Below, one piece after another: positions 19,138 to 56,785 of a stretch of DNA of 64,000 bases. Within the stretch, counting starts at the first letter, position 1; the number at the start of each line of letters is the position of its first letter. Under the pieces are notes generated by a model that was not told the origin of the DNA, searched no databases, and worked only from the letters and a program-made list of their open reading frames with translations. Source of the DNA: Dehalococcoidales bacterium (GTDB taxonomy: Bacteria; Chloroflexota; Dehalococcoidia; Dehalococcoidales; CSSed11-197); NCBI GenBank assembly GCA_028717385.1, contig JAQUNW010000001.1, positions 13,062 through 77,061 of the forward strand, written 5' to 3'. Made by a program: the position numbers and the translations under genes.

Positions 19138-19144
19138 GTTTTTA

Positions 19145-19153: not shown

Positions 19154-19316
19154 TTCGATAGTCAATATAGCCATATAGTAATAACCACTATATAAATTGT
19201 ACCATGCCCTGCAATAGTCAAAATTACTAGCTTGACCTTGGGTGTATAATGAGAAAGGTATTTTATAAATGTATTAATAATAGAAAGATTGTCTAAAATA
19301 TATAATACATAAGTTT

Positions 19317-21449
19317 ATGAAATCAGATTTTGTAAAAATAGACCTTCATGTGCACACGCCGGCATCTTCATGCTATAAAGGCCCCAAGAGTGATGATGAG
19401 TATTTAAGAATTCTGCGATTTGCACGTTCTAATGATATAAAGATATTAGGTATATCTGACCATAATTCAATTGATGGTTATAAACGGATTTTAAATATAA
19501 AAGAGAAATTAGCCAATGAAAGAAAATCCCTTTCATTGATTACCGACTCTAAGCAAGTAAAAAATAGAATATCAAAAATAGACGATGATTTAGAAATATT
19601 TAAAAGTATTCTTATTCTTCCAGCAATTGAATTTGAGGTAAGTAACGGAATTCATTTACTAGTTGTTTTTAATGATACAACCCCAATTGAGGATATACAT
19701 CAGTTTTTATCTAATGGTGGGTACAATCAAGATAATTTTGGAATAGAAGAGCCAAACGTATTATCTAACTGGGATATTTTCAAATTATATGAAGAATCTG
19801 CTAAATATGATTGCCTGGTAATTGATGCTCACACTGATTCTAACAAAGGAATATTAAACACAATCCCTCAAGGCAATACAAGAGCTAATTGTTTTAGTTC
19901 CCCTTATCTTGCAGCCGTTTGCTATAGGAGTGAGGAGCAAAAAGAAAAACTGGCGAATACAATAAAATCCCAACGCCCATATTTAAGAAAAACACCTCTT
20001 CCGTTTTTAAAATTTTCAGATGCTCATATTGCTGAAGAAGTAGGAAAACCGCTGTCTTGGGTAAAAGTTGAAAAGCTGTCATTTCCTTCTTTGAAAATCG
20101 CATTTTCAAATCCGTCGGAGATGGTCTCAACAGAAGAGCCATCTATGGCTCGTATATTAGATGACTTAATAAAGTTAGACAATTCGATAGGGATACCCGA
20201 TGTTTCAGAAGATTCACAATCATTGTTAAAAAAATATATTTGTGCTTTTGGAAATACAGATGGTGGGTATATACTTTTAGGAGTTTCCAAAAATAAAAGC
20301 AAAATAGGCTTAGTTGAGAAAAGTGAAGGAGGCGGACATGCATTAAGCCATATTATCAACCCAATTTTTGAGTGTTTTTCTAATATTGAGCCAGCAGTAA
20401 GACCTACAATTACTCAATATAACCTACAAAGCAAAAAACATATATTTTCTATTCACGTTCAAAAATCTCCGACTTTAATTAACATTAAGAATGACAGGCT
20501 TGTATATTCGATAAAAAAGGGGACAATAAGTGTTTTAAAGGCAACAGAAATTGAAGCAATAGCCCAAGATAAATTATTGGTTGACATTGAAAGTAAAATA
20601 TCTAATCACCTATTATCTGTTCAAAATGAGTGTTGTTTAATTAAAAATATATTCTGTTGCTTGCCTATTATTCGTTTTTTTGATTGCCATAGCCATGAAG
20701 CTATTTTTCGATTTGAAGTAGCTAAGTCGATAAGCCTAGAGAAAAAAAATATTGATAAGCTAAAAAAAATAGGAATTAATGGTACAAGTAGGGGAAATAT
20801 ATACTATTTAGATAATGTAATACCACCTAGATTAACATCTACATATTTAAGATATAGTATTCCGTTATTCACTTTAGCTAAAGTGAAATTAGATATTAAA
20901 AGGAAGGAGACAATATATATTGTTCCTGGCGGAGCAGTATTTTATTCTACTAAAAATTTTCAATTCTTTTCCGAGAGTTTACCTAATATATTAAAGATTT
21001 CTGGGGATATCAAACCAAGTGCTAAATTTATTGTGGCTTTTTTGAAATCATCTTTTAATCTATGGTATTTAAAGAATAAATTAGATAATATAGATATATT
21101 TCAACCTGAGGTATTTAACAATCTAAGGCTACCTGTTATAAATCTTAAACATAGCGATTCATCCCAAGCTATAAATGAGATACACAATAGTATAGATGAA
21201 ATAATCAAGTTAGAATCTAATTATTTAGTAAAACAGAGGAAATACAATATAAAAGATGACAAGCAAAGAGAGATACTATCGAAGTTAACAACCGAACATA
21301 ATTCGAAAGTTGATTTAATAGCATATGATATCGATAAACTCATATACAAACTCCTTGATTTATCCGAAAATCAAATAAATGTTATTGAAGAAAACCTCAG
21401 ATTAAATGACATATACCTTCCGCCACTTTCTCGACATTGTTTTTGCTAA
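19317..21449 (+). CDS. PHP phosphoesterase + AlbA_2 (Schlafen-like) DNA-binding + TaqI_C-like target-recognition fusion protein
   Basis: 710 aa. PHP motifs DLHVHT, ISDHN, EFE, IDAHTD, FSDAH. AlbA_2-like FGNTDGGYILLGVSKNKSKIGL. C-terminus FLKSSFNLWYL...LRLPVINL...IDKLIYKLLDLSENQINVIEE resembles Eco57I/TaqI-type TRDs. No Walker or MTase motif seen. Confidence 0.7.
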   Translation: MKSDFVKIDLHVHTPASSCYKGPKSDDEYLRILRFARSNDIKILGISDHNSIDGYKRILNIKEKLANERKSLSLITDSKQVKNRISKIDDDLEIFKSILILPAIEFEVSNGIHLLVVFNDTTPIEDIHQFLSNGGYNQDNFGIEEPNVLSNWDIFKLYEESAKYDCLVIDAHTDSNKGILNTIPQGNTRANCFSSPYLAAVCYRSEEQKEKLANTIKSQRPYLRKTPLPFLKFSDAHIAEEVGKPLSWVKVEKLSFPSLKIAFSNPSEMVSTEEPSMARILDDLIKLDNSIGIPDVSEDSQSLLKKYICAFGNTDGGYILLGVSKNKSKIGLVEKSEGGGHALSHIINPIFECFSNIEPAVRPTITQYNLQSKKHIFSIHVQKSPTLINIKNDRLVYSIKKGTISVLKATEIEAIAQDKLLVDIESKISNHLLSVQNECCLIKNIFCCLPIIRFFDCHSHEAIFRFEVAKSISLEKKNIDKLKKIGINGTSRGNIYYLDNVIPPRLTSTYLRYSIPLFTLAKVKLDIKRKETIYIVPGGAVFYSTKNFQFFSESLPNILKISGDIKPSAKFIVAFLKSSFNLWYLKNKLDNIDIFQPEVFNNLRLPVINLKHSDSSQAINEIHNSIDEIIKLESNYLVKQRKYNIKDDKQREILSKLTTEHNSKVDLIAYDIDKLIYKLLDLSENQINVIEENLRLNDIYLPPLSRHCFC

Positions 21450-21568
21450 CGAACTTTCCACTACACTAATAAACCAAACATGACATAACGGTACACATCA
21501 AAGCTAAATCATCCAATTGAGAGGCATGTCTCGTTACTCAGATTTACATTTAGGGATGTAAATTGTAT

Positions 21569-21611
21569 CTTTTAATCAGGGTGTCACAGGTTCGAGACCT
21601 GTACGGCCTAC
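21569..21611 (+). repeat. Direct repeat copy 2 (attR-like partial tRNA-Lys 3' end)
   Basis: Identical 43 nt to 17192-17234. It lacks the 5' half of the tRNA, so it is not a functional tRNA. Confidence 0.9.
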
Positions 21612-22446
21612 TTCCAATCCTCCATTACCGCTTCTATTATCTCTATTTCTCAAATCCCGCAGCCAGGGAACATCCAAAAGAACCATCAAATTCTATAGGT
21701 ACCTGCTTATACCATTTACACAGACATGCACACTCTCACCCAATGACATATGCCAGTTCCTATCCACCAGGACCTGCACCAACGGCAAGAACGCCTACTA
21801 CAGATCCATAAGAGCCTTCTGCAACTGGCTGTACAGACAGGGATACATCACCGATAACCCTATAACAAAGGGAGACCCGCCCAGGATGAGGAAGGTCATC
21901 CTTCCGAGTCTTACCAGTGAACAGGTAACGTATCTGATAGATCAAGCAGATAATACCCGTGACAAAGCAATCATCAGCCTGCTTGCAGACTCAGGCATCC
22001 GTCTTAATGAACTCATCAACATCAAAGAAGAACATATAGACTTCGAAACCCAGAAAATCATTATCTGGGGCAAGGGCGCCAAGTAGCGGAAAGCTCCTTT
22101 CACATCAAGAACACTGAATCTCATAAATGAATATTTGAGCACCGCCAATAATGAGCGTTTCAATATGTGGAACATAAAAAGAAGAGGCATCCAGATCATG
22201 CTGTATAGACTGGAGAAGAGGATTGGTTTACGGTGTAATCCACATACATTCAGGAGGACTTTTGCCAGTAATTTGCATAGACAGGGACTGGACATAGAAC
22301 ATATCATGAGGCTTGGCGGGTGGGAGAGCCTGGATATGGTATTGAGGTATACAAGGTCAGTGAAGTTTGAGGAGAGTTTGAGGTTGTATCAGGGGGTTGG
22401 AGAGATAAAATGCACATTGTATAATTTGTGTACTTGTTGCTGTTAG
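21612..22446 (+). pseudogene. Tyrosine integrase pseudogene (5'-truncated, in-frame TAG)
   Basis: A single frame reads FLKSRSQGTSKRTIKFYRY...ICQFLS...RAFCNWLYRQGYITDNP...ADSGIRLNELINI...GKGAK*RKAPF...HTFRRTFAS...LGGWESLDMVLRY. There is no start codon, the frame abuts the repeat, and a TAG lies at 22084-22086. Confidence 0.8.
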
Positions 22447-22701
22447 TAAGTTTTGGAACTCATTTTATGCGATATAGCAAAATATGATTAGATCGACATG
22501 AATGTTCCACTAATTAGAGGAGAGAACATCAAGCTAATTTCTTACTTGTCTTCCGCACCGAGCGCAGAATTGCACTTCAGGGCTAATCTTTCTGCCACGT
22601 GAAAAACAATACTCATCAACGGATAACAATTCGCTTGATGGCTCTATGTGTTCAACTCGTTCAACATCCTCTATGATAGGTTCGATTTTGTATGATTCAT
22701 T

Positions 22702-23385
22702 TTAAGGTTGTTTCCAATGCCAATTCTTTTTACAATCTAAACAGTGCCCTCGCCAGAGATATTCATAACCAAGTTGAAGTTTCTCATTTTCATTATTTGC
22801 TTTTTCACTTACCGAATCCACAATGTTTCTACTTTGACAATAGGGGCACTTTTTTAATTTGTAATCCAAATATTCGTCTTCAAATTTTCCTCCACACCCG
22901 CCACAAGTATTACTTCTACCAGAAATAGCCCGTCCGCATTTTGAGCAAAGGTTCACACCCTGAAAATGTGTGTGTTGTTTTTGCGAGGTAGCAAAATTAC
23001 TTGTGTTTCCGTTACTTAATTCAAATTGTACGCCACATTTTGGGCAAAACAAATCATCGTCTTGTACGATAGTCCCACATTTCTCACAAATTGAATTGTT
23101 ATTGTTTTCGTAATCATATTTTTGTCTGTTGGCATCTTTGTTGGAATATATTATTGACCCTATTAAGCCCCCAGTGGTGAGAACAGCTCCAGTAGCTAAT
23201 AATGTTAATCCTAGGGTTTCTTTATTTTCACCAGATTTAATCCTGCTTTCGGTTGTTGAAGACCACACAGGTCTTGCTTCTTCAAGAGGTGTTAATTTTT
23301 GTAAATTCAAACCTTCCTGCCACTGAAACATCCCGATAGCAATAAAAACTATGCCGAAAGTCATAATTAGCACAAATTTCTTCAT
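22702..23385 (-). CDS. Membrane protein with two TM helices and four CxxC-pair zinc-ribbon motifs
   Basis: 227 aa. TM1 FVLIMTFGIVFIAIGMF and TM2 LTLLATGAVLTTGGLIGSII. These are followed by CEKC..CPKC, CSKC..CGGC, CPYC and CLDC. Confidence 0.6.
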   Translation of the reverse strand: MKKFVLIMTFGIVFIAIGMFQWQEGLNLQKLTPLEEARPVWSSTTESRIKSGENKETLGLTLLATGAVLTTGGLIGSIIYSNKDANRQKYDYENNNNSICEKCGTIVQDDDLFCPKCGVQFELSNGNTSNFATSQKQHTHFQGVNLCSKCGRAISGRSNTCGGCGGKFEDEYLDYKLKKCPYCQSRNIVDSVSEKANNENEKLQLGYEYLWRGHCLDCKKNWHWKQP

Positions 23386-23488
23386 TTAGTCTACTCCTAA
23401 CAATTTTGTAACATATTGTTTGTTTAAATATCCAAATAGTGTAGAAGCAGATATATTCCAATCAGTTACTATGGAATCTTTGTAATTA

Positions 23489-23905
23489 TTACTTTGGCTT
23501 CACGCTTCTTTTATTACTTGGCTTAGTTTTTACAGATGTTGTTTTTGGTTTGCTTGAGGTAGACTTTGATTTCGACTGACCGGTCTTATTCTGAGTAATT
23601 TTGGATTTTAATGGGGCACTCTTTAAGGTTGATATTTTGGGTTTAAATGTAGCGCCCTTCTTTTTATTACAAGGTGGACATAGCAATTGAAGATTAGCAG
23701 GATTATCTTTGCCACCTTTGGAAACAGGAGTTATATGATCAACTTCAAGAATATCTAATGGGAATTCTCTTCGGCACTTCTTACACCTGTAGCCTACTAC
23801 TCTTGTGGTTCCAAGCCATATATCCTCTTCAATATTTTCTTGGTTCTGATACTTGGCAATATTCTTTTTGTCAGCTTTGCTAAACCGAAGACGCATTTCT
23901 ATCAC
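23489..23905 (-). CDS. HNH endonuclease with Lys/Ser/Thr-rich basic tail
   Basis: 138 aa. CKKC...LEVDHITPVSKGGKDNPANLQLLCPPCNKKKG is a canonical HNH/His-Me finger. The C-terminal 55 aa or so are low-complexity K/S/T-rich. Confidence 0.8.
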   Translation of the reverse strand: MIEMRLRFSKADKKNIAKYQNQENIEEDIWLGTTRVVGYRCKKCRREFPLDILEVDHITPVSKGGKDNPANLQLLCPPCNKKKGATFKPKISTLKSAPLKSKITQNKTGQSKSKSTSSKPKTTSVKTKPSNKRSVKPK

Positions 23906-23911
23906 ACCTCA

Positions 23912-24823
23912 TTATTGATTACTAGCGGATGTATTAGATAATTTAGTACCACATTTAAAACAAAATCTATACTCGTCTTGGACTTCAGTACCACAATTAC
24001 TACAAGAAGATACCTCAAGTTTCTTTTTATTCAATAAAGTTCTATATTTACACTTAGGGAAATTTGAACAACATAAAAATGACTCTCCCGCATGAGCACC
24101 CTTTTTTGCTTCGCGCGTGATAAGTTTACCTTCTTTGCACTTAGGGCATATTTTTGGAGTGACGTCAGATCGTGCGACAATTGTGTTTAACATTATCGAC
24201 GATTTCGATTGTTCGGAATGCTTAGATTTTACAGTATGGATATGCTTAAGATGATCAGAGAAGTTTGTGATATTTTGGATTTCTTGTATGCTCTGATTAA
24301 ATTTTGCAACTTCTTCGTCGGTGAATATGACTTCTTTATGACTAACTATCTCTTTGATATAACTATAGCCATTTGAAAAAGCGCTAGTTTCACATATAAC
24401 TCCTTGAGGTTTTTCCTTCTTAAACTTGCATCCACCCCAAATATAGACTATGGCGAAAACATTCTCGGGGGGTATTGATAAATATTCAGACAACATGATC
24501 TTGTGTTTGTAATTCTGCCGAATGGGATTTGGGTAAGAAAACTTGCCACCATTAATAAAAACAGTCCAAGTTTTATCATGTAAGGAGCCGTATATAACAG
24601 AATCGCTATTCCATCTTTTTGTTTCTACTACGAAAATCCCATATCGAGAAACTATTACATGATCTATCTGTGTAGAATCATCAGCGTTTTTGATAAGAAC
24701 ATTGTCATATTTACGATGATACTTGGGATCGAGGATGGTCTGCACTAGTTTGGTTTGGGCTTCTCCGATAAATCCCTTGAAAGTAGACTCTATAGACATA
24801 ATTTGTATTTTAACTCCAGACAA
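23912..24823 (-). CDS. NERD-domain protein with topoisomerase-type C4 zinc finger and a C-terminal zinc ribbon
   Basis: 303 aa. NERD core GEAQTKL...QIDHVIVSRYGIFVVETKRW, then CPKCKEGKL...CCSNFPKCKY (zf-C4-Topoisom-like) and CSNCG...CFKCG. Confidence 0.8.
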   Translation of the reverse strand: MSGVKIQIMSIESTFKGFIGEAQTKLVQTILDPKYHRKYDNVLIKNADDSTQIDHVIVSRYGIFVVETKRWNSDSVIYGSLHDKTWTVFINGGKFSYPNPIRQNYKHKIMLSEYLSIPPENVFAIVYIWGGCKFKKEKPQGVICETSAFSNGYSYIKEIVSHKEVIFTDEEVAKFNQSIQEIQNITNFSDHLKHIHTVKSKHSEQSKSSIMLNTIVARSDVTPKICPKCKEGKLITREAKKGAHAGESFLCCSNFPKCKYRTLLNKKKLEVSSCSNCGTEVQDEYRFCFKCGTKLSNTSASNQ

Positions 24824-41256: not shown

Positions 41257-42081
41257 ATGAAGGAAATCAACATAAATACTACAGTCAAGCTTAATAATGG
41301 TGTCGAGATGCCTATTTTCGGCCTCGGAACCTGGCAAATCACTGGCAAAGAAGCTGAATTGACCGTCCGCTGTGCTCTAGATGCAGGTTACAGGCACATT
41401 GACACCGCTGCCGCATATCACAACGAAGAGGAAGTTGGAAAGGCCATACGTGAAAGTGGACGTAAACGAGAAGATATTTTCATAACCACAAAATTATGGA
41501 AAGACGACCTTGGCTATAAACCTGCACTCGAAGCCTGTAATAAAAGCCTTGCAAAATTGGGGCTGTCGTATGTTGATCTTTATCTTATCCACTGGCCTGG
41601 TGGCCGGCGATTAGAAACATGGAAAGCCATGGAAGAGTTGCTCAAAACCGGCAAGTGCCGCTCAGTTGGCGTCAGCAACTTTACCATCAGACACCTGAAA
41701 CAACTTATGGAAGACTCTTCAGTTATCCCCGCTATTAACCAGGTAGAATTCAGCCCGTATCTGTATCAACAAGACCTTTTTGATTTTTGCAAGGCAAGCG
41801 GAATTCAACTGGAATCATATAGTCCTCTAACCAGGGGAAACAAGCTTAATGATGCACATTTGGTTTCAATCGCAAATAAATATGGTAAAAGCACAGCCCA
41901 GATATTAATTAGATGGGTGTTGCAATTGGGGATCGTCGTTATTCCAAAAGCGGCTAAACAGGAACACATAAGACAGAATGCTGATGTTTTTGATTTTGCC
42001 CTGTCCCAGGAGGACATGATAACTCTCAGTAACTTCAATGAAAATTTGCGAAACTGTTGGGACCCTTCTTCTATCGACTAA
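41257..42081 (+). CDS. Aldo/keto reductase
   Basis: 274 aa. GLGTW, GYRHIDTAAAY, LYLIHWP and IPKAA...NADVFDF motifs. Confidence 0.9.
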   Translation: MKEININTTVKLNNGVEMPIFGLGTWQITGKEAELTVRCALDAGYRHIDTAAAYHNEEEVGKAIRESGRKREDIFITTKLWKDDLGYKPALEACNKSLAKLGLSYVDLYLIHWPGGRRLETWKAMEELLKTGKCRSVGVSNFTIRHLKQLMEDSSVIPAINQVEFSPYLYQQDLFDFCKASGIQLESYSPLTRGNKLNDAHLVSIANKYGKSTAQILIRWVLQLGIVVIPKAAKQEHIRQNADVFDFALSQEDMITLSNFNENLRNCWDPSSID

Positions 42082-42122
42082 GAAAAATATAATGCAGGAA
42101 ATAATTGATGGAGCGAGCATAG

Positions 42123-42611
42123 ATGAACAACTTTGAACCCTTTACAGCTCTTGAATTCAGCGCTGCTGACAGCGAAGGCCGCTTGGTAAAACTCTCTGAC
42201 TTTAAGGGCATTAAAAACGTTTTACTGGTTTTTAACCGCGGCTTTCAGTGACCATACTGCCGAAGGCATATGGCGCATTTGCGCCAAGATTACCGGGAGT
42301 TTGTGGATCGGGATACCGAGATTATAGCTATAGGCCCGGAAGATAAGAAAAGCTTTGCCCAATGGTGGAAAGAAAACGATATGCCCTTTATAGGCATTGG
42401 CGACCCCCAGCACCTGATAGCTGATCTCTATGGCCAACAAACAAAGCTGATGAAACTTGGGCGCATGCCGGCTATGCTAATTGTAGATAAAAGTGGTAAC
42501 ATCCGCTTCAAACACCTAGGTCAGTCTATGAGTGATATACCAGAAAACCAACGTGTTCTAGCAATAATAGACGCCCTTAATGTTGAGCACCAGGCAAAGA
42601 AGTCCGATTGA
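42123..42611 (+). CDS. Redoxin/peroxiredoxin-like (AhpC/TSA) protein with in-frame TGA at the first Cys of the CxxC motif: selenoprotein candidate or pseudogene
   Basis: Own translation from the ATG at 42123 gives MNNFEPFTALEFSAADSEGRLVKLSDFKGIKNVLLVFNRGFQ-TGA-PYCRRHMAHLRQDYREF... It is in frame with track ORF 42270-42611. The TGA is at 42249-42251. Confidence 0.55.
42252..42285 (+). other. Hairpins immediately downstream of the in-frame UGA (SECIS candidates)
   Basis: CCATA(C)TGCC-GAA-GGCATATGG at 42252-42273 and GGCGC-ATTT-GCGCC at 42272-42285. Confidence 0.3.
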
Positions 42612-43098
42612 TTAATAATTCTCGCTACAAAAGTGCAGAATGTATTTAACGTGCAATAACTGGTAGTTGTGCTTGCGTAAATTTGGCAGGCTTGTTATGA
42701 ATAAATCATTGAATGGTTATATTAAAGGTTTTCTCGTTGAGAATTGCTGAATCCAAGTGAGTGCGTTTATATTTAAACTCAATCTGTGTAAAGCCCTTGA
42801 TAAGCGATTTAAAAACGAAATATTGATTACTTCTATCATCGAGAAGATCTATTCCAAACCAAACACAATTGTTAGCTACTAGTTCAACCATATTTTCGTC
42901 GTAGTTAACAAACCAGTCTAACCCTAATCTGGGGTTTCTCGGCAGCGCTATAGTGACCTTCCCCCCAAAACGCCCATAGATACGCGATTGAACGTATGCC
43001 TCAGGATATAAGACAAAAAGCGGTGGCTAAGCCTTAGAAATATTTAAAAAAGCAGCTATTAATGAACCGTTTAAAAATTAAAACTATCCTTAACACGG

Positions 43099-43362
43099 TC
43101 AAGAAAACAGATGTTCAATACCATAAATGATTCCATGTTTGGAAGTAGACCACATTTCGTATTGCGGATGATCGAATCCCTGATGGCAGGGCAAACAAGC
43201 CTCAGGTTGACGAGCTTCATTTATTGAAAAGCTATGGCGTGTATGGCAGGTTACACAGGCGCTTTCATCCGCTGCTTTTACTTGATTGGAAGAAAGCAAG
43301 GCTAATGAGGCAGACAGAATTATTAAGCAAGCAGATAATGTGAACACTTTTTTTATATTCAT
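43099..43362 (-). CDS. Small secreted dihaem c-type cytochrome (possibly the N-terminal remnant of a multihaem cytochrome)
   Basis: 87 aa. Signal peptide, two CxxCH motifs (CVTCH, CLPCH) and HPQYEMWSTSKHG, which is reminiscent of NrfA/HAO-type multihaem proteins. Confidence 0.6.
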   Translation of the reverse strand: MNIKKVFTLSACLIILSASLALLSSNQVKAADESACVTCHTRHSFSINEARQPEACLPCHQGFDHPQYEMWSTSKHGIIYGIEHLFS

Positions 43363-43848
43363 TATGCCAGTATCTCCTTAATAGCACTATTAATCCTGAT
43401 TCTTACCGATGATTTACTTAAAATCGAAGCTTCAATGATATCAATCCCGCATCATCCTGAAGTAAATAAGAATTCAATAATTAGAAAATATTAACGCTAA
43501 AAATATCTGGGTATATGATAGACTTATATAAAGGGGACGCTGACACTTTAATTTGGAGTACAGGAATATATAGCCGATTAATAATACAATAACCATAGAC
43601 AGGTTGTTGAAGGGGCGCAAAATGAGCAATGTATATTGCAAGGTGGAATGTGGGCTTTGTAAAGAGGTGTTTATCCTGTCTTCCATGACTCAGCCGTTAC
43701 CGCAACACAAGCATCTAGGTGTTGAATGCCCAGGTTCCAGCAAACCCGGGAAATTCCTTTCAATTCACCAGAAGAAGCAACCATATTCCAGGTGTTAAAG
43801 TCTCAATTCAATAGGTTGCCATATTTAAATACTATCTAAGGATCTTTC

Positions 43849-44586
43849 ATGTGGATTTTTGTAGTAATCGGTTTAATTCTTATTGGAATTGGGCTGTCGG
43901 TTCATGTATTCAAATGGTATTTTCTTATTGCTGGTTATAACACCATGCCAGAAGAAAAACGTAAAAAGGTCAACACCGAAGGGTTGGGTCGCCTACTGGG
44001 AATTTATTGCTATGTTAATGGTGGCATGTTCATTCTGGCGGGCGTGTTACAAACTTTGGGAATTAAACAAGTGCTGGTTCCAACTATAATATTTTTTTGC
44101 ATTGCAACAATATTTATTTTAGTTAAAGCCCAGAAGTTCGATGGGAATATCTATAATACAGATGGAAAACTGTTAAAGGGAGCATGGAAGCAGCTGGTTA
44201 TACCACTTGGTATTGTCTTTGTTGCAGTAATCTTTGTTTGCGTTCTTATGTTCTACTCTACCCAATCAACAAAGGTAACAATTCTTGACGAAGGGATACA
44301 AATTCATGGCATGTACGGTGAAGTATACAATTGGACTTCAATTAACACAGTAAAGTTAATTGAAGAAATTCCCACTATTGAAAAACGCACCAATGGTTCT
44401 GCTGTCGGCTCAAACCTGAAAGGTTATTTTAAAACAAAAGAATTTGGTATAGTAAAATTATTTGTTAATGTTAATACAGCCCCTTTTGTTTATATTGAAA
44501 CCACCAATGGGATTTCAATCTTTAATTTGAAAGACGCCCGCCAAACGCAAAACGTGTACAGTGAGATTGTAGAACGATTATCCTAA
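43849..44586 (+). CDS. Membrane protein, DUF3784-like N-terminus plus bacterial PH-like C-terminus
   Basis: 245 aa. Four TM helices with FLIAGYNTMPEEKRKKV, then a soluble beta-rich C-terminal domain. Confidence 0.5.
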   Translation: MWIFVVIGLILIGIGLSVHVFKWYFLIAGYNTMPEEKRKKVNTEGLGRLLGIYCYVNGGMFILAGVLQTLGIKQVLVPTIIFFCIATIFILVKAQKFDGNIYNTDGKLLKGAWKQLVIPLGIVFVAVIFVCVLMFYSTQSTKVTILDEGIQIHGMYGEVYNWTSINTVKLIEEIPTIEKRTNGSAVGSNLKGYFKTKEFGIVKLFVNVNTAPFVYIETTNGISIFNLKDARQTQNVYSEIVERLS

Positions 44587-48083: not shown

Positions 48084-49043
48084 CTATGCGCATGCCAATA
48101 TTGCTCTCTTTACCAACGCAATTATAACCTGGCCCTTGTATTTATTTGCGTTGTTTGGCGGCAGAGGCACGGCGCCTGTGGCAGCGGCATTACCGGCTGC
48201 TTCTGCATTGGCAGCATTGATTGTTTTTCCCTTAATGGAATCTTGCGCGGCAGTGGCAATGCGCGGGATCCCATAGACTCCTCCCAGCACAATGCTTGCA
48301 TCACTGCTGCTGATAACTGCTGCGGCACTGACCAGAGGAAAATCAATTGCTTTTCTGAACGCAAACTTTTTATAGGCGCTTTTTGTTCCCGTTGCCGGAG
48401 CAGGTATTTGAATCTCGGTGATTATTTCATCATCATCCAAATTGTTGATCTTCTCTCCATTGTTACCAAAAAATTCGGTCGCTTCCCAGACTTTCTTTGT
48501 GGTGACGATTTTTGCCTTAAAGGCCACTAATGCCGGAGCGGTATCCGAAGGGCAGGGAGCAACACAGCCGTCTATGGCTCCGAATATTGAATGATATCGA
48601 TTCACACCTGTAAGAGCATTACAAATACCTTGCGGGTCCTTTCGCAAGCATTTGAAGTCGTTAAATTCATTGCGATAGTATATACAACGCGGTTTCTGGC
48701 AGATATTTCCTCCGATTGTGCCCATGTTTCTAAGTTCTGGAGACCCGACTGCTAATGCCGCCTGGGCTAAAGCGGTGTATTTTTCTTTTACTATACTCGA
48801 GTTGGCAATAGCTGTAAGCGTTGTAAGGGCCCCGATCTTGAGCATACCGCCATCTTCGCGAATATAAACAAGATCAGGTATTGTTTTGATGTTCACTATT
48901 ACTTCGGGCAGATTATCACTAATGAAACCTTTAAGACAAGTCATCAGATCGGTTCCACCGGCGACGACTTCAGCCTTGCCTTTCGCTAATTCGGCAGTTG
49001 CTTGAGATAGTGAGCTAACATTGATGTGAGTTATATTATCCAT
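48084..49043 (-). CDS. Molybdenum hydroxylase FAD-binding subunit (CoxM/XdhB/PaoB-like)
   Basis: 319 aa. VVAGGTDL, GTIGGNI and a CO-dehydrogenase flavoprotein C-terminal-like region. Confidence 0.85.
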   Translation of the reverse strand: MDNITHINVSSLSQATAELAKGKAEVVAGGTDLMTCLKGFISDNLPEVIVNIKTIPDLVYIREDGGMLKIGALTTLTAIANSSIVKEKYTALAQAALAVGSPELRNMGTIGGNICQKPRCIYYRNEFNDFKCLRKDPQGICNALTGVNRYHSIFGAIDGCVAPCPSDTAPALVAFKAKIVTTKKVWEATEFFGNNGEKINNLDDDEIITEIQIPAPATGTKSAYKKFAFRKAIDFPLVSAAAVISSSDASIVLGGVYGIPRIATAAQDSIKGKTINAANAEAAGNAAATGAVPLPPNNANKYKGQVIIALVKRAILACA

Positions 49044-49054
49044 CTTGCTTCCTC

Positions 49055-51325
49055 CTAACCCTTGCCTAATGCTTTGAGTACTCTGTCCGGGTTGGCACAG
49101 CCATGATCAGTATCAACCCACTTACCGGTAGCATTATAGATTGCGCAAATTATTGAAGCGTAACTGCCAACACAGGGTTCTCCAATACCATGAGCCCCAA
49201 GCGGCCCGGCAGCATCATCACCTTCAACTGGCAATAAATGGTGTTTGCTTGGCTTGCAATCCATGGTTGTAAGAAACTGTGCTTCAGTATATTGGCTGCT
49301 GATAACCGCTCCAGTAAGGGGATCATAGATATCACCATAGAACAAGGCCTGGTTAATCATCTGTTCAGTGCCTGATCCCATCTGGTTTTCAACGCCTTTC
49401 CGGAAGACGATACGGCCAGTACCAACGGAATTCCAGTGTTCGAGAACCTCAACTTGGCCGGTTTCAGGATCCACTGCAACTTCAGCAACTGAAGCACAAC
49501 CGCTATTGCAATTTACTAGCGTGCCGACTGGTAGCCCGAAAAGCTCCCGCTGTAAACCGCCTCCGTTGTCAGCGCTTGTTGAAGCCCAGCCTGTCCCATA
49601 ACCAGCAATTGGCGGGGTGCCGGACATAGCAGTCCGATACGTCATCCGCTTGGTGTCGTCATTCTTGTAAAATATTTCACTATTTTTAGCATCCAAATCA
49701 GTAATCTTGATTCCCGGAATATCCTTGAAAGGCGCTTTGAGAATGGCTTTAGCAAACACTTTTTCTCTGGCATCTCTGGCTGCATTTACCATAGACGATA
49801 GTCCACCGGTGAATGTTGAGCCACCGTGCATGCCGCCATCAAGGGTTACATCACTGTTCCCGTAATCACCACATTGCACGTCTTCATAGTTCATGCCCAT
49901 AACTTCAGCAACGAAATGCCTGGCTTCGGCGGGGGCGTTGTGAATTCCTGTGCCGCCTAATTCAAAAACGCATGTCCCATCTGCTTTCATCAGGACTAAA
50001 GCGCCTCTAGCTATGCCGTTTACAGTCCCGTGGCTATCATGATGGCAGTGTATGCCGATGCCGTGCAGTCTGCCGTCGGCCATGACATTGTTTTCACCGG
50101 GTTTATGCCATTTGGAAACATATCCACTTGCTTGAGCCACAGTTTCAAAACACTCATTGACCTCTTTGGCACCATAATACCAATTGGGCGAATCAAGAGC
50201 ACGCATATCTACAGGCATCAAATTTTTCTTTCGTATTTCATACGGGTTAATGTCGAGATGGGTGGCAAGTTTATCCAAGGCAGCGCTAATGTTTACACCA
50301 TTTGGCGGGTCAGAGACGCAGCGCCATGCCCCTCTATCCGGTACATTTATATAGGCACCCTTGCCACGCCACTTTACATGTGGAATGTTGAATGTGTGCT
50401 GTAAGCAAGGATTAATACCGGCGCCGGTACCATTTGTAAAATACTCAACATCTACAGCCGTGATAGTACCATCTGATTTTGCACCCCAGGTATATTTGGA
50501 ACGATGATCATGCTGGCGAATACGGAAAAGCATGCTGTGTTTCTTGGTGCATTTAAAGCAAACCGGAGCACCACCAACTGCTTTAGACATGAGTGCAGCC
50601 ACTCCTGCCTCCCAGTTAGAAAGGCGTGCACCATGGCCAGTGCTGCAATATCTCGCAATAGAGTGCACTTTATTTGACGTAGTTTCCAAATAGTTTACCA
50701 CTGCACTCTGGTTGCCGTGCAAGTTTTGTGAAGATTGATATACGTAACAATGATCGTTGAGCCAATATGCTGTAGCAATGTACTGCTCGATTGGCGCGTG
50801 TTGGTGAGTTGGTGTCCAATACTGTTCACATGTTAGGGTTGTGTCGGCTGCTGAGAAACCTGCTTCGATATTGCCTCGGTCAAAATTGGCGAGTGCAATG
50901 TTGGTATTTGCCCGCTTGCCACTCAGGGGGGCGTCATCACCAAGTTCGAACGCTTCATCCGGACCAGTTATTGCAGGCAAAAGCTCATACTCCACGTCAA
51001 TCAGATTGATAACGCGCAAAGCTTTATACCAGTCATCGGCTACAATGCCAACAATTGGCTGCCCCCAGAACAGTACATCGCTACTGAATATTGTAGGGGA
51101 GTCTTCATAAGTCAGGATTGCTTTAACCCCTGGCACAGCCAGGGCTTTTTGAGCATTTATACTTTTTATTTTGGCATGAGTTTCGGTTGCATGTTTACAT
51201 GCCCCCCAAAGCTTTTTACCTGATAAATAGTCTTCAGTAAATTCCGCTTTTCCTAGTAAAAGTGGATACGTTTTATGCTCGTAGGTTTCGGAGCTTCCCA
51301 GTATATTGAAGGGCGTTAAGGCCAT
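49055..51325 (-). CDS. Molybdopterin-binding large subunit of xanthine dehydrogenase/aldehyde oxidase family (PaoC/CoxL-like)
   Basis: 756 aa. a/b-hammerhead N-terminus (GKAEFTEDY...HAKIKSI), then GGGFG-family-like regions and a GIGEP motif near the C-terminus. Confidence 0.9.
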   Translation of the reverse strand: MALTPFNILGSSETYEHKTYPLLLGKAEFTEDYLSGKKLWGACKHATETHAKIKSINAQKALAVPGVKAILTYEDSPTIFSSDVLFWGQPIVGIVADDWYKALRVINLIDVEYELLPAITGPDEAFELGDDAPLSGKRANTNIALANFDRGNIEAGFSAADTTLTCEQYWTPTHQHAPIEQYIATAYWLNDHCYVYQSSQNLHGNQSAVVNYLETTSNKVHSIARYCSTGHGARLSNWEAGVAALMSKAVGGAPVCFKCTKKHSMLFRIRQHDHRSKYTWGAKSDGTITAVDVEYFTNGTGAGINPCLQHTFNIPHVKWRGKGAYINVPDRGAWRCVSDPPNGVNISAALDKLATHLDINPYEIRKKNLMPVDMRALDSPNWYYGAKEVNECFETVAQASGYVSKWHKPGENNVMADGRLHGIGIHCHHDSHGTVNGIARGALVLMKADGTCVFELGGTGIHNAPAEARHFVAEVMGMNYEDVQCGDYGNSDVTLDGGMHGGSTFTGGLSSMVNAARDAREKVFAKAILKAPFKDIPGIKITDLDAKNSEIFYKNDDTKRMTYRTAMSGTPPIAGYGTGWASTSADNGGGLQRELFGLPVGTLVNCNSGCASVAEVAVDPETGQVEVLEHWNSVGTGRIVFRKGVENQMGSGTEQMINQALFYGDIYDPLTGAVISSQYTEAQFLTTMDCKPSKHHLLPVEGDDAAGPLGAHGIGEPCVGSYASIICAIYNATGKWVDTDHGCANPDRVLKALGKG

Positions 51326-52146
51326 TATACACCTCCTTTAACGGCTTCTATGGTTTTCTTGAAGTTTCCGCATGAGCATATATGCCCAGAGAGAGCAAGT
51401 CGTACTTCATCTTCGGTCGGATTGGGCTTTACATTAAGAAGACCTTTAGCCGCCATTAAAAATCCTGGAGTGCAATAACCACACTGAACGGCATCGATTT
51501 TTTGGAATTTACTTTGCAAGGGACTGAGCTCGTGCCCGTCTGATATCCCTTCAACGGTCTCTATCTGAATTCCTTCAGCCTCGCGTGACAGCTTAAGGCA
51601 AGCATATATTGGCACTCCGTCCGCCAAAACTGTGCAAGCACCACATTGCCCCATGTCACAACCTATTTTAGTACCAGTAAGGCCTAACTGCTCCCTCAGA
51701 GTCCAGGCTAATGTTTCATGGTTGTTTACCCTTAATAGGTAATTTACTCCATTGACATTGAGTGTTACGATTGAAGGATCAAGCGGCTCTGCAACCAGAT
51801 GTTCACTTTCTATATGCGTTTTCAGTTCAGAAATCGATCCAAATTCAGTATTATCAAAGGGGCACACAAACTTGGTAATGGTCTCTACTTCACCAGGGTG
51901 AGCAGAATCAAGGTGCGATGCCAGCGCGCTGATTGAATCGAATTCCTGGCTACAAACAGGGCAAACAAAAGTAGCTTTTACTGTTGTAACCTGAACTGTT
52001 TTGGTAACTTCTTTTGTGACCTCTATCTCTCTGTCTTTGCATGCAGATAAGATAAAGGATGACCCAACAGCAGTACCTCCAACAATGATTCCTGCATTTT
52101 TTAGAAATTGCCTTCTTGATACTTGGCTTATTTCATTTTCAGGCAT
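51325..52146 (-). CDS. [2Fe-2S] small subunit of the Mo hydroxylase, with TAT signal, lipobox and two C2H2-like repeats inserted
   Basis: 273 aa. SRRQFLK twin-arginine motif and lipobox ILSAC. Repeats FVCPVCSQEFDSISALASHLDSAH and FVCPFDNTEFGSISELKTHIESEH. Ferredoxin motifs GCDMGQCGACTV and QCGYCTPG. Confidence 0.85.
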   Translation of the reverse strand: MPENEISQVSRRQFLKNAGIIVGGTAVGSSFILSACKDREIEVTKEVTKTVQVTTVKATFVCPVCSQEFDSISALASHLDSAHPGEVETITKFVCPFDNTEFGSISELKTHIESEHLVAEPLDPSIVTLNVNGVNYLLRVNNHETLAWTLREQLGLTGTKIGCDMGQCGACTVLADGVPIYACLKLSREAEGIQIETVEGISDGHELSPLQSKFQKIDAVQCGYCTPGFLMAAKGLLNVKPNPTEDEVRLALSGHICSCGNFKKTIEAVKGGV

Positions 52147-55387: not shown

Positions 55388-56785
55388 ATGAAAAAATATC
55401 ACTCTACCGTCACGCGCAGAGATTTCCTAAAGGCGCTTGGGCTTGGTGGAGCAGGTGCTGGGCTGGCATCAATTCTTCCCCCTTTCACCAACCAGCCAAT
55501 CAGAGACCTTGATGAGCTGATGTCGCTTCCAATTGCCGGCATGAAAAGACCTTCCTGGGTAAAAACCGTTGAGAAACCAACTGTTGAAATCGATTGGCCC
55601 ACTATAGAACGTTTTGATTACCACCATGTTATGTGGGCAGCGGGCTTAAAGCGAGCGCTAGGGTCGCAACAATATGACCAGGTTTTTGTAGATGGCCGGG
55701 TAAACCGCAGGCAATGGATTGCAGACAATAAGCCCGGCTCCAGGTTACAGGACGTGGCCATGAAAGAAGCTAACCATTACGCTCCTGTATCATTTATAGG
55801 GCCACAGACATCACCCACTCCGGAAAGCCTTCAAGTACCTCGTTACGAAGGAACGCCAGAAGAAAATGCTCGGCTGGTAACAGCCTTTATGCGCCTTCAT
55901 GGAGCAAGCCACGTCGGCTTTGTTGAGCTGGATACTGATACCACCGAAAAACTTATATATTCTTACGATACTGGATCAGGAGAGAAGCAGGGTCCCCGTT
56001 TAGATATACTTGATTATGACGTGCCGGTAGAAAATTTGGCAGAAGGTTATCGGATCATACCCAAAAAAGCCAGATGGGTTATCGTATATACTCTTAGAAT
56101 GGCCGATGAGCTTATGAAGAGGCCAATTACAGAAGTGGGAGATAGATCTCACTACTATATGTATAACCTCAAGTCTCTTCTGCAGGGGCAGCTGCAAAAT
56201 TTCATGCGGACACTTGGTTATATGTGCCTTGGGGAAGCCGCCAACTTTAACGCTTTGGGTGTACATACCGGTTTTGCTGTAATGGCAGGCTTGGGAGAAA
56301 TGAGCCGAGTTGGGCATACAATAACTCCTGAATATGGACTGCAGCAAAGGGTTCAAATTGTAATTACCGATCTTCCTTTACCGTCCGGAAAGCCAATCGA
56401 TTTTGGATTACATGTATTTTGTAAAACCTGTAAAAAATGTGCGGATCATTGTCCGGCGAAAGCCATCAATCCTGCAACGGAACCAACATGGGATAACGGT
56501 GGGCTTTTTTATCGAGCCATCGGGATAAAACGCTGGTGGTTAAATGAACCTCTTTGCAACGCATATATCAGAAGGGTAAATGGTTGTGCAACCTGCTTTG
56601 CAGTATGCCCATTCTCAAAACGCCATAACATGTCATACAATGATTTATTCAGGAGGAGCGTAGCTTCTAATCCAGCTATGAACAGATTCTGGCGCAAAGC
56701 GGATGATTTCTTCTACGGAAGCGGCATTCACAGTGATTCCAACAAGTTTTGGGAGCTTGATTTACCGCCTTTTGGATATGATTGA
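55388..56785 (+). CDS. rdhA: Reductive dehalogenase catalytic subunit
   Basis: 465 aa. TAT signal TRRDFLKALG. Two Fe-S motifs, CKTCKKCADHCP and C...CATCFAVCP. Overall Dehalococcoidia-type RdhA layout. Confidence 0.92.
   Translation: MKKYHSTVTRRDFLKALGLGGAGAGLASILPPFTNQPIRDLDELMSLPIAGMKRPSWVKTVEKPTVEIDWPTIERFDYHHVMWAAGLKRALGSQQYDQVFVDGRVNRRQWIADNKPGSRLQDVAMKEANHYAPVSFIGPQTSPTPESLQVPRYEGTPEENARLVTAFMRLHGASHVGFVELDTDTTEKLIYSYDTGSGEKQGPRLDILDYDVPVENLAEGYRIIPKKARWVIVYTLRMADELMKRPITEVGDRSHYYMYNLKSLLQGQLQNFMRTLGYMCLGEAANFNALGVHTGFAVMAGLGEMSRVGHTITPEYGLQQRVQIVITDLPLPSGKPIDFGLHVFCKTCKKCADHCPAKAINPATEPTWDNGGLFYRAIGIKRWWLNEPLCNAYIRRVNGCATCFAVCPFSKRHNMSYNDLFRRSVASNPAMNRFWRKADDFFYGSGIHSDSNKFWELDLPPFGYD

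What the first reader, a model, noticed from the sequence alone, without database searches (positions are those of the whole stretch)
42123..42611. In-frame TGA exactly at the first cysteine of a redoxin CxxC motif: UxxC selenoprotein candidate
Translating from the ATG at 42123 gives a typical AhpC/TSA-redoxin N-terminus (...GKNVLLVFNRGF Q) and then TGA (42249-42251). It continues in the same frame as P-Y-C-RRHMAHLRQDY... into the tracked ORF 42270-42611. Homologous redoxins that I recall read G-x-x-C-P-Y-C here, so the stop replaces the catalytic Cys (U-P-Y-C). Thioredoxin-fold and Prx-like proteins are among the classic bacterial selenoproteins, and Sec/Cys replacement at the redox site is their hallmark. 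Directly after the UGA there are two possible stem-loops: CCAUA(C)UGCC-GAA-GGCAUAUGG (42252-42273) and GGCGC-AUUU-GCGCC (42272-42285). Either could serve as a bacterial SECIS, although neither is a textbook match. The alternative is a nonsense pseudogene, which is plausible in this decay-rich region. A random stop hitting precisely the catalytic Cys codon would be a coincidence.
Basis: partly seen in the sequence, partly recalled or inferred. Interest (0 to 1): 0.65.

Follow-up and report, generated by a model that had tools for sequence, protein, structure and literature searches.

The report
Selenocysteine-containing peroxiredoxin-like redox protein gene
The "stop codon" inside this small redox-protein gene is almost certainly read as the rare amino acid selenocysteine, so this is an intact gene of an already known type that gene finders split in two, not a broken gene.

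Summary
ATG 42123 opens a 162-codon AhpC/TSA-fold gene with one in-frame TGA (42249-42251) in the motif GFQ-U-PYC.

The selenoprotein reading is strongly supported. All 27 genome loci and all 80 metagenome loci fetched for relatives (54-81% identity, mostly Dehalococcoidia) carry TGA at this column. More distant homologues carry Cys. Both halves of the gene are under purifying selection while synonymous sites are saturated.

A hairpin 22-37 nt downstream of the TGA, UGGCGC-AGUU-GCGYCA (window 42271-42286), is frozen at synonymous sites. It fits the published bacterial SECIS model. The window's own loop is AUUU and lacks the consensus G.

The protein aligns Sec-on-Sec with published "Prx-like 1" UxxC selenoproteins, so it is a new member of a known kind. 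The pseudogene alternative is rejected.

Not shown: Sec machinery in this genome (none in the 64 kb), selenium incorporation, and the substrate. The most likely mechanism is inferred: a Sec43/Cys46 selenenylsulfide redox couple in a peroxiredoxin fold, acting as a thiol-disulfide or peroxide reductase.

The parts
42110..42113 (+). Shine-Dalgarno-like GGAG, 9 nt before the start codon
   Evidence: Read directly from the sequence. It is identical in six assemblies of the same organism. Function is inferred.
42123..42611 (+). Complete selenoprotein coding sequence: 162 codons including one Sec-UGA, with terminal stop TGA at 42609-42611. The product is a peroxiredoxin-fold UxxC redox protein.
   Evidence: Translation. 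Pfam AhpC-TSA covers residues 9-129 at E 4e-24, and Redoxin scores 2e-18. Relatives align over residues ~5-160 across the TGA. Against L001, pN is 0.11 upstream and 0.086 downstream of the TGA, while pS is ~0.74-0.76.
42249..42251 (+). In-frame UGA, read as selenocysteine (residue 43, first position of the U-P-Y-C motif)
   Evidence: TGA sits at this column in 27 of 27 genome loci and 80 of 80 metagenome loci. Cys codons occupy it in L111, L113 and L114. It aligns to Sec of the published GOS 'Prx-like 1' selenoproteins. In the AlphaFold model of Cys homologue P0003, the equivalent residue caps the N-terminus of the first long helix.
42258..42260 (+). TGC, Cys46: the only cysteine of the protein and the presumed partner of Sec43 in a selenenylsulfide
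   Evidence: It aligns to the peroxidatic Cys of M. tuberculosis AhpE. No other Cys codon occurs anywhere in the 108 Sec-type coding sequences analysed.
42271..42286 (+). Candidate SECIS hairpin U-GGCGC [AUUU] GCGCC-A. The loop begins 25 nt after the UGA. The family consensus loop is AGUU.
   Evidence: It folds at -10.8 kcal/mol, z -3.7. Across 97 distinct sequences, 96.6% of cells are paired, with G-C to G-U changes at one pair. Synonymous sites are frozen: GCG 102/107 (background 15%), TTG 103/108 (15%), CAG 104/104 (62%), CGY 105/106 (39%). Two of three Cys-type homologues have lost it.
42252..42273 (+). Second stem-loop CCAUA(C)UGCC-GAA-GGCAUAUGG. It overlaps the base of the SECIS hairpin, and its role is uncertain.
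   Evidence: It folds at -8.5 kcal/mol, z -3.5 in the window. Across the family only 78.7% of cells pair. The inner UGCC/GGCA part pairs in about 60% of sequences, and one pair shows C-G/U-A alternation that may simply reflect shared ancestry.
42270..42611 (+). The 113-aa ORF that gene callers report (MAHLRQ...). This is a calling artefact, not a separate gene.
   Evidence: About 60 of the 120 best database homologues are 106-114 aa calls starting at the same Met, 21 nt after the TGA. Contigs show a 42-43 aa call followed by a 111-113 aa call.

Best explanation
Window 42123-42611 is one intact gene for a 162-residue selenoprotein. During translation the UGA at 42249 is recoded to selenocysteine. 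The proposed route is a SelB-Sec-tRNA(Sec) complex recruited by the mRNA hairpin at 42271-42286. The second TGA, at 42609, has no such hairpin and terminates the protein. The product has a peroxiredoxin (BCP/PrxQ-like) fold, but its active site is CxxC-derived (U43-P-Y-C46). Sec sits at the N-terminal cap of the active-site helix, where canonical peroxiredoxins have Thr. Cys46 sits where they have the peroxidatic Cys. The most likely chemistry is as follows. The selenolate attacks an oxidised substrate (a disulfide or a hydroperoxide). Cys46 resolves the intermediate into an intramolecular selenenylsulfide. A thioredoxin or thioredoxin-reductase-type system then re-reduces it. What is shown here: the gene structure, family-wide TGA/Cys alternation, purifying selection, the conserved hairpin, the fold, and homology to published Prx-like 1 selenoproteins. 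What is inferred: actual Sec insertion in this organism, SelB binding to this hairpin, the substrate and the reductant.
For: (1) TGA is conserved at this column in 27 of 27 GTDB genome loci (Dehalococcoidia/Chloroflexota, plus one bin labelled Spirochaetes) and 80 of 80 metagenome loci, at 54-81% protein identity.
(2) Cys codons occupy the same column in more distant homologues (P0003, P0006, P0012 and others).
(3) Window versus L001: synonymous sites are saturated (pS 0.74-0.76), but pN is only 0.11 upstream and 0.086 downstream of the TGA.
(4) The Pfam domain and the AlphaFold model need both halves. In the model of Cys homologue P0003 (pLDDT 92), three strands come from the part before the motif.
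(5) The hairpin is conserved at synonymous sites, far from the codon usage of the same genes. It meets the published bSECIS criteria for stem, loop size, 16-37 nt spacing and energy (for the model, for energy). The family consensus also meets the loop-G criterion.
(6) TGA is an ordinary stop in this window: 3 of 41 Pfam-supported ORFs use it, and so does this gene's own end.
(7) Sec aligns on Sec with GOS 'Prx-like 1' selenoproteins, E 2e-12 to 1e-5 against a 7-sequence set.
(8) The Sec trait is documented in the class. Dehalogenimonas has selC, Sec-synthesis genes and a Sec-specific elongation factor (PMC4918011). Dehalococcoidia MAGs with 46-49 selenoproteins are listed in BSepDB (PMC13326102).
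(9) In 12 related loci a TrxR-like flavoprotein gene (CSTCD motif) lies directly upstream on the same strand.
Against: No selA, selB, selD or tRNA-Sec lies in the 64-kb window, so the machinery in this genome is unverified.

The window's hairpin loop is AUUU, not AGUU. It therefore fails the 'G in the first two loop positions' criterion of the consensus bSECIS model. Only the window lineage and L001 show this among the DNA held. By their His residue at this codon, P0046 and P0055 (starting MAHLRQ) must lack the loop G too.

The hairpin shows almost no compensatory covariation: it is conserved as sequence. One covarying cell was found, and 5-10 of 500 shuffles reach the observed values. RNAalifold did not return it as the consensus structure.

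No Rfam family matches. One relative has a genuine TGG (Trp) at the column (L028/L029). There is no experimental evidence, and the binomial P values ignore phylogenetic relatedness.
Confidence: 0.87

Rival explanations
1. Nonsense pseudogene: a random stop mutation hit the catalytic Cys codon of a decaying redoxin gene.
For: The window holds some short or fragmentary ORFs nearby, such as the 87-aa multihaem cytochrome piece at 43099-43362. One relative (L014) does carry an extra TAG just before the TGA, so individual copies can decay.
Against: The same TGA is present in 107 of 107 loci fetched by the two scans, from many species. pN is ~0.1 on both sides of the TGA while pS is saturated. There are no other stops or frameshifts. 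A downstream hairpin is conserved at synonymous sites.
Confidence: 0.02
2. The UGA is read through, but by something other than Sec: near-cognate Trp or Cys insertion, or a reassigned code.
For: Sec machinery cannot be shown in the window. One relative has a real TGG at the column with the hairpin still intact (L028). The window's loop lacks the consensus G.
Against: TGA terminates 3 of 41 well-supported ORFs here, and this gene itself, so the code is standard. The homologous residue is a redox-active Cys, the classic Sec/Cys pair. A dedicated conserved hairpin at SECIS distance is not needed for leaky read-through. Sec aligns on Sec with published selenoproteins. Three of the four 'W' proteins whose DNA could be read are TGA translated with code 4, not Trp (L112, L115, L116).
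Confidence: 0.04
3. It is a genuine Sec family, but the window's lineage is losing efficient recoding. The Q-to-H change (CAG to CAU) removed the loop G, so most ribosomes terminate at 42251 and the gene is on its way to loss or to a Cys/Trp replacement.
For: The loop G is kept in 96 of 98 distinct sequences even though it is a synonymous site. The bSECIS model requires it. Escapes exist: L111 is a Cys form with the hairpin still present, and L028 is a Trp form with the hairpin still present.
Against: The window and L001 share the AUUU loop. They are 79% identical in protein with saturated synonymous sites, and both keep an intact ORF, the TGA and a perfect stem. At least one further lineage with His at this codon (P0046, 66% identity) shows the same 43-aa plus 111-aa split. 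The variant has therefore persisted under selection.
Confidence: 0.08
4. Two separate products: a 42-residue peptide, plus a 113-residue protein re-initiated at ATG 42270.
For: Gene callers output exactly this. The Met codon at 42270 is nearly invariant.
Against: The ATG is part of the conserved RRHMAQLR helix and of the hairpin stem, and it has no ribosome-binding site of its own. The thioredoxin-type fold needs the N-terminal strands and the UxxC motif. Cys-type homologues are single 155-165 aa proteins.
Confidence: 0.01

Closest known systems
Prx-like thiol:disulfide oxidoreductase, also called 'Prx-like 1': a bacterial selenoprotein family (PF00578, UxxC) from Zhang & Gladyshev's selenoproteome surveys (PMC1794560, PMC2398784; Table 1 of PMC13188914)
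   Same: It has the same Pfam domain and the same UxxC motif with Sec first. The local motif (hydrophobic strand - R-G-x-x-U-P-x-C-R) is shared. GOS Prx-like 1 reads align to the window protein with U on U. That family is likewise only predicted, not verified experimentally.
   Different: Identity to the GOS examples is only 24-34%. The window belongs to a tight, mostly Dehalococcoidia clade with its own signature (VFNRGFxUP[YH]CR[RK]HMAQLRQDY ... GRMPA) and its own nearly invariant SECIS sequence. No NCBIfam selenoprotein model reaches its cutoff. The NCBI record of a relative (P0115) names it a redoxin domain-containing protein and gives only the 107-aa truncated product.
Canonical peroxiredoxins of the BCP/PrxQ and AhpE type (e.g. 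PDB 3drn, 3hjp, 1xvw)
   Same: They are the best fold matches to the AlphaFold model of Cys homologue P0003 (Foldseek TM 0.82-0.85) and the best PDB sequence matches to the window protein (E 9e-10). Cys46 aligns with the peroxidatic Cys. A nearly invariant Arg (R114 in GRMPA) lies one column from the catalytic Arg of AhpE.
   Different: The PxxxTxxC signature is absent: Pro is replaced by Arg39 and Thr by Sec43. Sec-containing true peroxiredoxins are TxxU, with Sec at the other position (PMC13188914).
SelL and 'SelL-related redox protein' (NCBIfam NF040769)
   Same: This is the best NCBIfam match (E 5.8e-20, residues 9-104). Both are Prx-like, thioredoxin-fold proteins with a CxxC-derived motif that can carry Sec.
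   Different: The score is 71.7 bits against a curated cutoff of 120, so it is not a member. From my own knowledge, SelL itself is a eukaryotic UxxU protein.
Extracytoplasmic thiol-disulfide oxidoreductases ResA/TlpA/DsbE
   Same: They have a CxxC motif at the same structural position and a thioredoxin-like fold with the same insertion. PDB hits score E 1e-7.
   Different: The fold match is weaker (TMq 0.72-0.73). The alignments with relatives show no long N-terminal extension of the kind a signal or anchor would need. NCBIfam scores are far below the cutoffs.
Consensus bacterial SECIS model (bSECISearch, as summarised in PMC13188914)
   Same: There is a 6-bp upper stem and a 4-nt loop. The loop starts 25 nt after the UGA (allowed range 16-37). 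Energy is -10.8 kcal/mol (required at most -7.5). The family loop A-G-U-U fits N-G-[G/U]-N.
   Different: [quoted passage not shown] Conservation is at the sequence level, with almost no compensatory changes.

Membership tests
Bacterial selenoprotein gene (Sec-UGA recoding) | In-frame UGA at a position occupied by Cys in homologues (Sec/Cys pair) | tested here: met
   TGA in 107 of 107 loci fetched by the two scans. Cys codons TGT/TGC in L111, L113 and L114 and in many database proteins.
Bacterial selenoprotein gene (Sec-UGA recoding) | Protein-level conservation and purifying selection on both sides of the UGA | tested here: met
   pN is 0.11 upstream and 0.086 downstream, against pS of ~0.75, versus L001. 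Results are similar versus L002, L003, L005 and L027. The Pfam domain spans the UGA.
Bacterial selenoprotein gene (Sec-UGA recoding) | SECIS: stem of 4-16 bp and loop of 3-9 nt, loop 16-37 nt after the UGA, MFE at most -7.5 kcal/mol | tested here: met
   6 bp, 4-nt loop, 25 nt spacing, -10.8 kcal/mol. Criteria are quoted from PMC13188914.
Bacterial selenoprotein gene (Sec-UGA recoding) | SECIS: a G in one of the first two apical-loop positions | tested here: not met
   The window loop is AUUU (CAU His codon). The family consensus AGUU meets the criterion in 96 of 98 distinct sequences. PMC13188914 notes that a subset of bSECIS elements fall outside the model.
Bacterial selenoprotein gene (Sec-UGA recoding) | selA, selB, selC (tRNA-Sec) and selD in the same genome | not testable with these tools
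   None is present in the 64-kb window: ARAGORN and Rfam find only tRNA-Lys, and the Pfam scan of 51 ORFs finds no Sel domains. The rest of the genome is not available. Presence at class level comes from the literature only.
Bacterial selenoprotein gene (Sec-UGA recoding) | Selenium physically incorporated at the UGA position | not testable with these tools
   This needs 75Se labelling or mass spectrometry.
Prx-like thiol:disulfide oxidoreductase / 'Prx-like 1' selenoprotein family | AhpC/TSA (PF00578) domain | tested here: met
   E 4e-24, 85.4 bits against a cutoff of 26.
Prx-like thiol:disulfide oxidoreductase / 'Prx-like 1' selenoprotein family | UxxC motif with Sec in the first position | tested here: met
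   U43-P-Y-C46. The motif is conserved as U-P-[YHFL]-C in relatives.
Prx-like thiol:disulfide oxidoreductase / 'Prx-like 1' selenoprotein family | Detectable homology to published members, with the Sec columns aligned | tested here: met
   BLASTP against 7 GOS Prx-like 1 reads from the supplement of PMC2398784 gives six hits, E 2e-12 to 1e-5, 20-34% identity. In the four alignments printed that cover the motif, the window's Sec column falls on the read's Sec. E-values refer to a 7-sequence database. The named representative WP_010940744.1 could not be obtained.
Canonical peroxiredoxin (PxxxTxxC ... R) | Conserved Pro and Thr preceding the peroxidatic Cys | tested here: not met
   In the alignment to AhpE, Pro corresponds to Arg39 and Thr to Sec43.
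Canonical peroxiredoxin (PxxxTxxC ... R) | Peroxidatic Cys at the helix N-terminus, and a catalytic Arg | tested here: inconclusive
   Cys46 aligns with the peroxidatic Cys. Nearly invariant R114 lies one column from AhpE's Arg in a gapped region.
NCBIfam NF040769 SelL-related redox protein | Score at or above the curated cutoff (120 bits) | tested here: not met
   71.7 bits, covering only residues 9-104.

The most novel reading that the evidence does not exclude
The window's lineage keeps a Sec-UGA whose SECIS apical loop (AUUU) lacks the guanine that the consensus model requires. L001 shows the same loop. P0046 and P0055 have His at that codon, so they must lack the G too. If recoding is still efficient, SelB in these Dehalococcoidia recognises a different determinant, namely the invariant GGCGC/GCGYC stem and the loop uridines. 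That would be a distinct bacterial SECIS class, and natural AGUU/AUUU pairs in the same gene family would allow a direct test.
Probability: 0.25. Interest if true: 0.45.

Novelty: new member of a known kind. Interest (0 to 1): 0.3.

Why it matters
For annotation: the gene should be called as one 162-residue selenoprotein, not as 42-aa and 113-aa fragments or a pseudogene. The same error affects hundreds of database entries. About half of the best 120 homologues are truncated calls. Three of the four 'W' entries whose DNA could be read are TGA translated as Trp with code 4.

For biology: it adds a well-populated Dehalococcoidia clade to the Prx-like UxxC selenoproteins. It also implies that this dehalogenase-bearing organism uses selenium.

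The nearly invariant SECIS sequence could serve as a probe for this clade. The natural variants (AUUU loop, Trp, Cys, UxxT) give ready-made material for testing SECIS and active-site requirements. None of this changes current understanding of selenoproteins.

Tried and rejected
- Rfam, at gathering thresholds on the whole window and at E up to 10 on 42100-42450, gave no SECIS or other relevant family.
- RNAalifold on 97 sequences returned a weak alternative helix (10-14 with 23-27, -4 kcal/mol) instead of the strong hairpin. I did not adopt it, because it leaves the frozen sites +30, +33 and +36 unexplained.
- I first read the many 'W' homologues as a third, Trp state of the family. Three of the four whose DNA could be read are TGA translated with code 4. 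Only P0015 is a real TGG. Two further look-ups returned no DNA.
- A Pfam scan of 51 window ORFs for SelA/SelB/SelD found none.
- A scan of the window for other TGA-interrupted ORFs with a nearby Cys found no second convincing candidate.
- Synteny: the window's neighbours (aldo/keto reductase, cytochrome fragment) are not conserved next to the gene in other species.
- The search for related loci with the 28-sequence alignment failed because it had no conserved stretch, so I reran it with closer sequences.
I modelled the Cys homologue P0003 instead.
- The BSepDB supplement with representative sequences is not held.
- The DNA of the second His-variant lineage (P0046) could not be fetched.
- The promoter/terminator scan around the gene found nothing informative.

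Full report
**Observation.** The sequence is as described. An ATG at 42123 is preceded by GGAG nine bases upstream. It opens a frame that reads MNNFEPFTALEFSAADSEGRLVKLSDFKGIKNVLLVFNRGFQ. The frame then meets TGA at 42249-42251 and continues as PYCRRHMAHLRQDY... to a terminal TGA at 42609-42611. With the internal TGA read through, the product is 162 residues. Pfam AhpC-TSA matches residues 9-129 (E 4e-24) and Redoxin matches at 2e-18, so the domain spans the stop. Six independent metagenome assemblies of the same organism carry the identical gene with the same TGA (L030, L117-L121). It is therefore not an assembly error.

**Comparative evidence for recoding.** A search with the read-through protein returned 492 homologues.
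- About half of the best 120 are 106-114-residue calls that all begin at the Met 21 nt after the TGA (MAQLRQDY...).
- Others are full length with Cys at the column (GFxCP[YF]C).
- About 35 are full length with 'W'.

I fetched DNA for relatives from one genome per species (27 loci, nearly all Dehalococcoidia/Chloroflexota MAGs, 54-79% identity) and from metagenomes (80 loci, 62-81% identity to Cys homologue P0003). Every one of the 107 has TGA at exactly this column, flanked by conserved coding sequence on both sides.

Three of the four 'W' proteins whose DNA could be read do not translate to the database sequence under code 11. They are TGA read as Trp by a code-4 gene model (L112, L115, L116). 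One, P0015 on L028/L029, is a genuine TGG. Two further look-ups returned no DNA. True Cys codons were confirmed in L111, L113 and L114.

Between the window and its closest species-level relative L001 (79% identity), synonymous sites are saturated (pS 0.74-0.76). Non-synonymous divergence is 0.11 upstream and 0.086 downstream of the TGA. This is the signature of a translated, selected, single reading frame, and it rules out a nonsense pseudogene.

TGA is otherwise an ordinary stop here. It ends 3 of 41 Pfam-supported ORFs in the window, and it ends this gene itself. The genetic code is therefore not reassigned.

**The RNA element.** Position 1 is the U of the UGA. Nearly all relatives then carry A22-U-G-G-C-G-C-A-G-U-U-G-C-G-Y-C-A38. 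This is a hairpin of six pairs (U23-A38 to C28-G33) with the loop AGUU.

Per-column counts over 98 distinct sequences show that the third codon positions inside it are frozen:
- +27 is G in 93.
- +30 is G in 96.
- +33 is G in 93.
- +36 is only C or T, which keeps a G-C or G-U pair.
- The Leu codon is never CTN.

Other fourfold-degenerate sites nearby have 1.8-2.0 bits of entropy.

Codon usage at the hairpin differs sharply from the rest of the same 108 genes:

| Site | Codon(s) | Use at the site | Background |
|---|---|---|---|
| Ala +8 | GCG | 102/107 | 15% |
| Leu +10 | TTG | 103/108 | 15% |
| Gln +9 | CAG | 104/104 | 62% |
| Arg +11 | CGC/CGT | 105/106 | 39% |

The binomial P values overstate significance because the sequences are related. 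The contrast with saturated synonymous sites elsewhere is still clear.

On 97 sequences, 96.6% of cells pair, against 18-66% when the partner is slid. There is almost no compensatory covariation, so the element is conserved as sequence. RNAalifold did not pick it.

Of the three Cys-type genes, the closest (L111) still has the hairpin and the two more distant (L113, L114) have lost it. The Trp-type L028 still has it.

The hairpin fits the published consensus bacterial SECIS model: loop 3-9 nt, stem 4-16 bp, a G in the first two loop positions often followed by U, loop 16-37 nt from the UGA, and energy at most -7.5 kcal/mol (PMC13188914). Here the spacing is 25 nt and the energy is -10.8 kcal/mol.

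**The window's own hairpin.** The window's copy (42271-42286) has a perfect stem, but its loop is AUUU, because the Gln codon CAG is a His codon CAU. It therefore fails the loop-G criterion. L001 shares this loop. At least one more lineage with His at this codon (P0046) shows the same 43-aa plus 111-aa split with the same 21-nt offset. The variant has thus persisted.

Its inner four pairs form in about 60% of sequences. One pair alternates C-G/U-A, which may reflect shared ancestry. No Rfam family matches.

**What the protein is.** An AlphaFold model of the Cys homologue P0003 (62% identical, pLDDT 92) gives a thioredoxin-type fold. The residue equivalent to Sec43 lies immediately before the first long helix. 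Its best structural neighbours are BCP/PrxQ/AhpE peroxiredoxins (TM 0.82-0.85). ResA-type oxidoreductases score somewhat lower (0.72-0.73).

In sequence alignments to AhpE, Cys46 falls on the peroxidatic Cys, Sec43 on the conserved Thr, and Arg39 on the conserved Pro. The site is therefore a CxxC-derived UxxC in a peroxiredoxin scaffold, not a canonical PxxxTxxC peroxiredoxin. Cys46 is the only cysteine in the protein, and no other Cys codon occurs in any of the 108 Sec-type genes.

I therefore infer a Sec43/Cys46 selenenylsulfide redox cycle. Whether the substrate is a disulfide or a hydroperoxide is not resolved.

In 12 loci of one clade, a thioredoxin-reductase-like flavoprotein (Pyr_redox_2, CSTCD motif) sits directly upstream on the same strand, which suggests the reductant. 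Other clades have a heliorhodopsin gene, a Cyt-b5/DUF2231 membrane protein or a small unknown protein upstream. The window has an aldo/keto reductase 41 nt upstream that is not conserved elsewhere.

**Comparison with what is known.** 'Prx-like thiol:disulfide oxidoreductase' (PF00578, UxxC), also called 'Prx-like 1', is a long-known, computationally predicted bacterial selenoprotein family (PMC1794560; PMC2398784; Table 1 of PMC13188914). Sequences of GOS Prx-like 1 reads taken from the supplement of PMC2398784 align to the window protein with Sec on Sec and a shared R-G-x-x-U-P-x-C-R motif. Identity is only 20-34%.

The best NCBIfam match, SelL-related redox protein, is below its cutoff. A relative's NCBI record is a truncated 'redoxin domain-containing protein' (P0115).

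Use of Sec in the class is documented. Dehalogenimonas alkenigignens has selC, Sec-synthesis genes and a Sec-specific elongation factor (PMC4918011). BSepDB lists Dehalococcoidia MAGs with 46-49 selenoproteins (PMC13326102).

The window fits a Dehalococcoidia origin. It carries a TAT-signal reductive dehalogenase, and its closest relatives are Dehalococcoidia MAGs. It contains no sel genes or tRNA-Sec, so the machinery in this particular genome remains unverified.

**Verdict.** This is a genuine selenoprotein gene, a Dehalococcoidia-clade member of the known Prx-like UxxC selenoproteins, mis-split by gene callers. It is a good catch but not a new kind of thing, and I score interest at 0.3. The least ordinary aspect is the loop variant of the SECIS in the window's lineage. 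A genuine Trp replacement, a UxxT variant and a TAG-TGA copy among relatives are minor side observations.

Noticed in passing
L028:2127-2129 and L029:1655-1657 (protein P0015): One relative has a genuine TGG (Trp) codon at the Sec column (GFV-W-PYC), with the SECIS-like hairpin still intact. It is seen on 4 contigs from at least 2 sequencing runs. It looks like a recent TGA-to-TGG escape that removes the redox-active residue.
   Followed up: partly
Database proteins P0004, P0022 and P0036 (loci L112, L115, L116): Full-length 'Trp' versions of this protein in ENA and Logan gene calls are TGA translated with genetic code 4 on short contigs. Such entries could mislead alignments of any selenoprotein family.
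   Followed up: yes
L103:485-1447 (+), and the equivalent in L083, L084, L086, L095, L098, L099, L100, L102, L105, L109, L110: In the peat-metagenome 'GFF-U-PHC' clade, a thioredoxin-reductase-like flavoprotein gene (Pyr_redox_2, CSTCD motif) ends about 50 nt upstream of the selenoprotein gene on the same strand. This is a likely reductase-plus-selenoredoxin operon.
   Followed up: partly
L003:2151-2915, L004, L005:2193-2954, L007, L061, L064, L078, L079, L082, L092, L096, L097, L114:670-1470, and the P0046 contig: A heliorhodopsin gene lies directly upstream, on the same strand, of the Sec-redoxin gene in one Dehalococcoidia clade. It also lies upstream of a Cys-type homologue. Linkage of heliorhodopsins to redox-defence genes has been discussed in PMC8612252.
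   Followed up: partly
L014:1611-1616: One Dehalococcoidales MAG has TAG immediately before the Sec-TGA (GF-TAG-TGA-PYC), where relatives have CAG. It is a probable pseudogene copy or a sequencing error.
   Followed up: no
L116 (protein P0036): This variant has U-P-Y-T: the partner Cys is replaced by Thr, giving a GPx-like UxxT motif in the same scaffold.
   Followed up: no
window 17161-24823: tRNA-Lys (17161-17236) is followed by a phage-type integrase (17360-18544), a LuxR-type regulator, a Schlafen/AlbA_2 protein, an HNH endonuclease and a NERD nuclease. It looks like an integrated mobile or defence island at the tRNA gene.
   Followed up: no
window 51325-52146 (-): The [2Fe-2S] small subunit of a xanthine-dehydrogenase/CO-dehydrogenase-type cluster (48084-52146) has an N-terminal extension that hits several eukaryote-style C2H2 zinc-finger Pfam models (residues ~47-88). 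This is unusual for this subunit.
   Followed up: no
window 55388-56785 (+): A reductive dehalogenase homologue with a TAT signal and a 4Fe-4S double-cluster domain. It is consistent with a Dehalococcoidia host. It is one of the few genes here that ends in TGA.
   Followed up: no
L119 (JGI 3300060969) versus window 41257-44586: In one assembly of the same organism, the gene upstream of the selenoprotein is the DUF3784 gene (window 43849-44586, inverted) rather than the aldo/keto reductase. This is either a local rearrangement or an assembly chimera.
   Followed up: no
window 43099-43362 (-): An 87-aa ORF with multihaem cytochrome c motifs (Pfam Multi-haem_cyto on the identical product in related contigs). 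It is very short for such a protein and may be a fragment.
   Followed up: no
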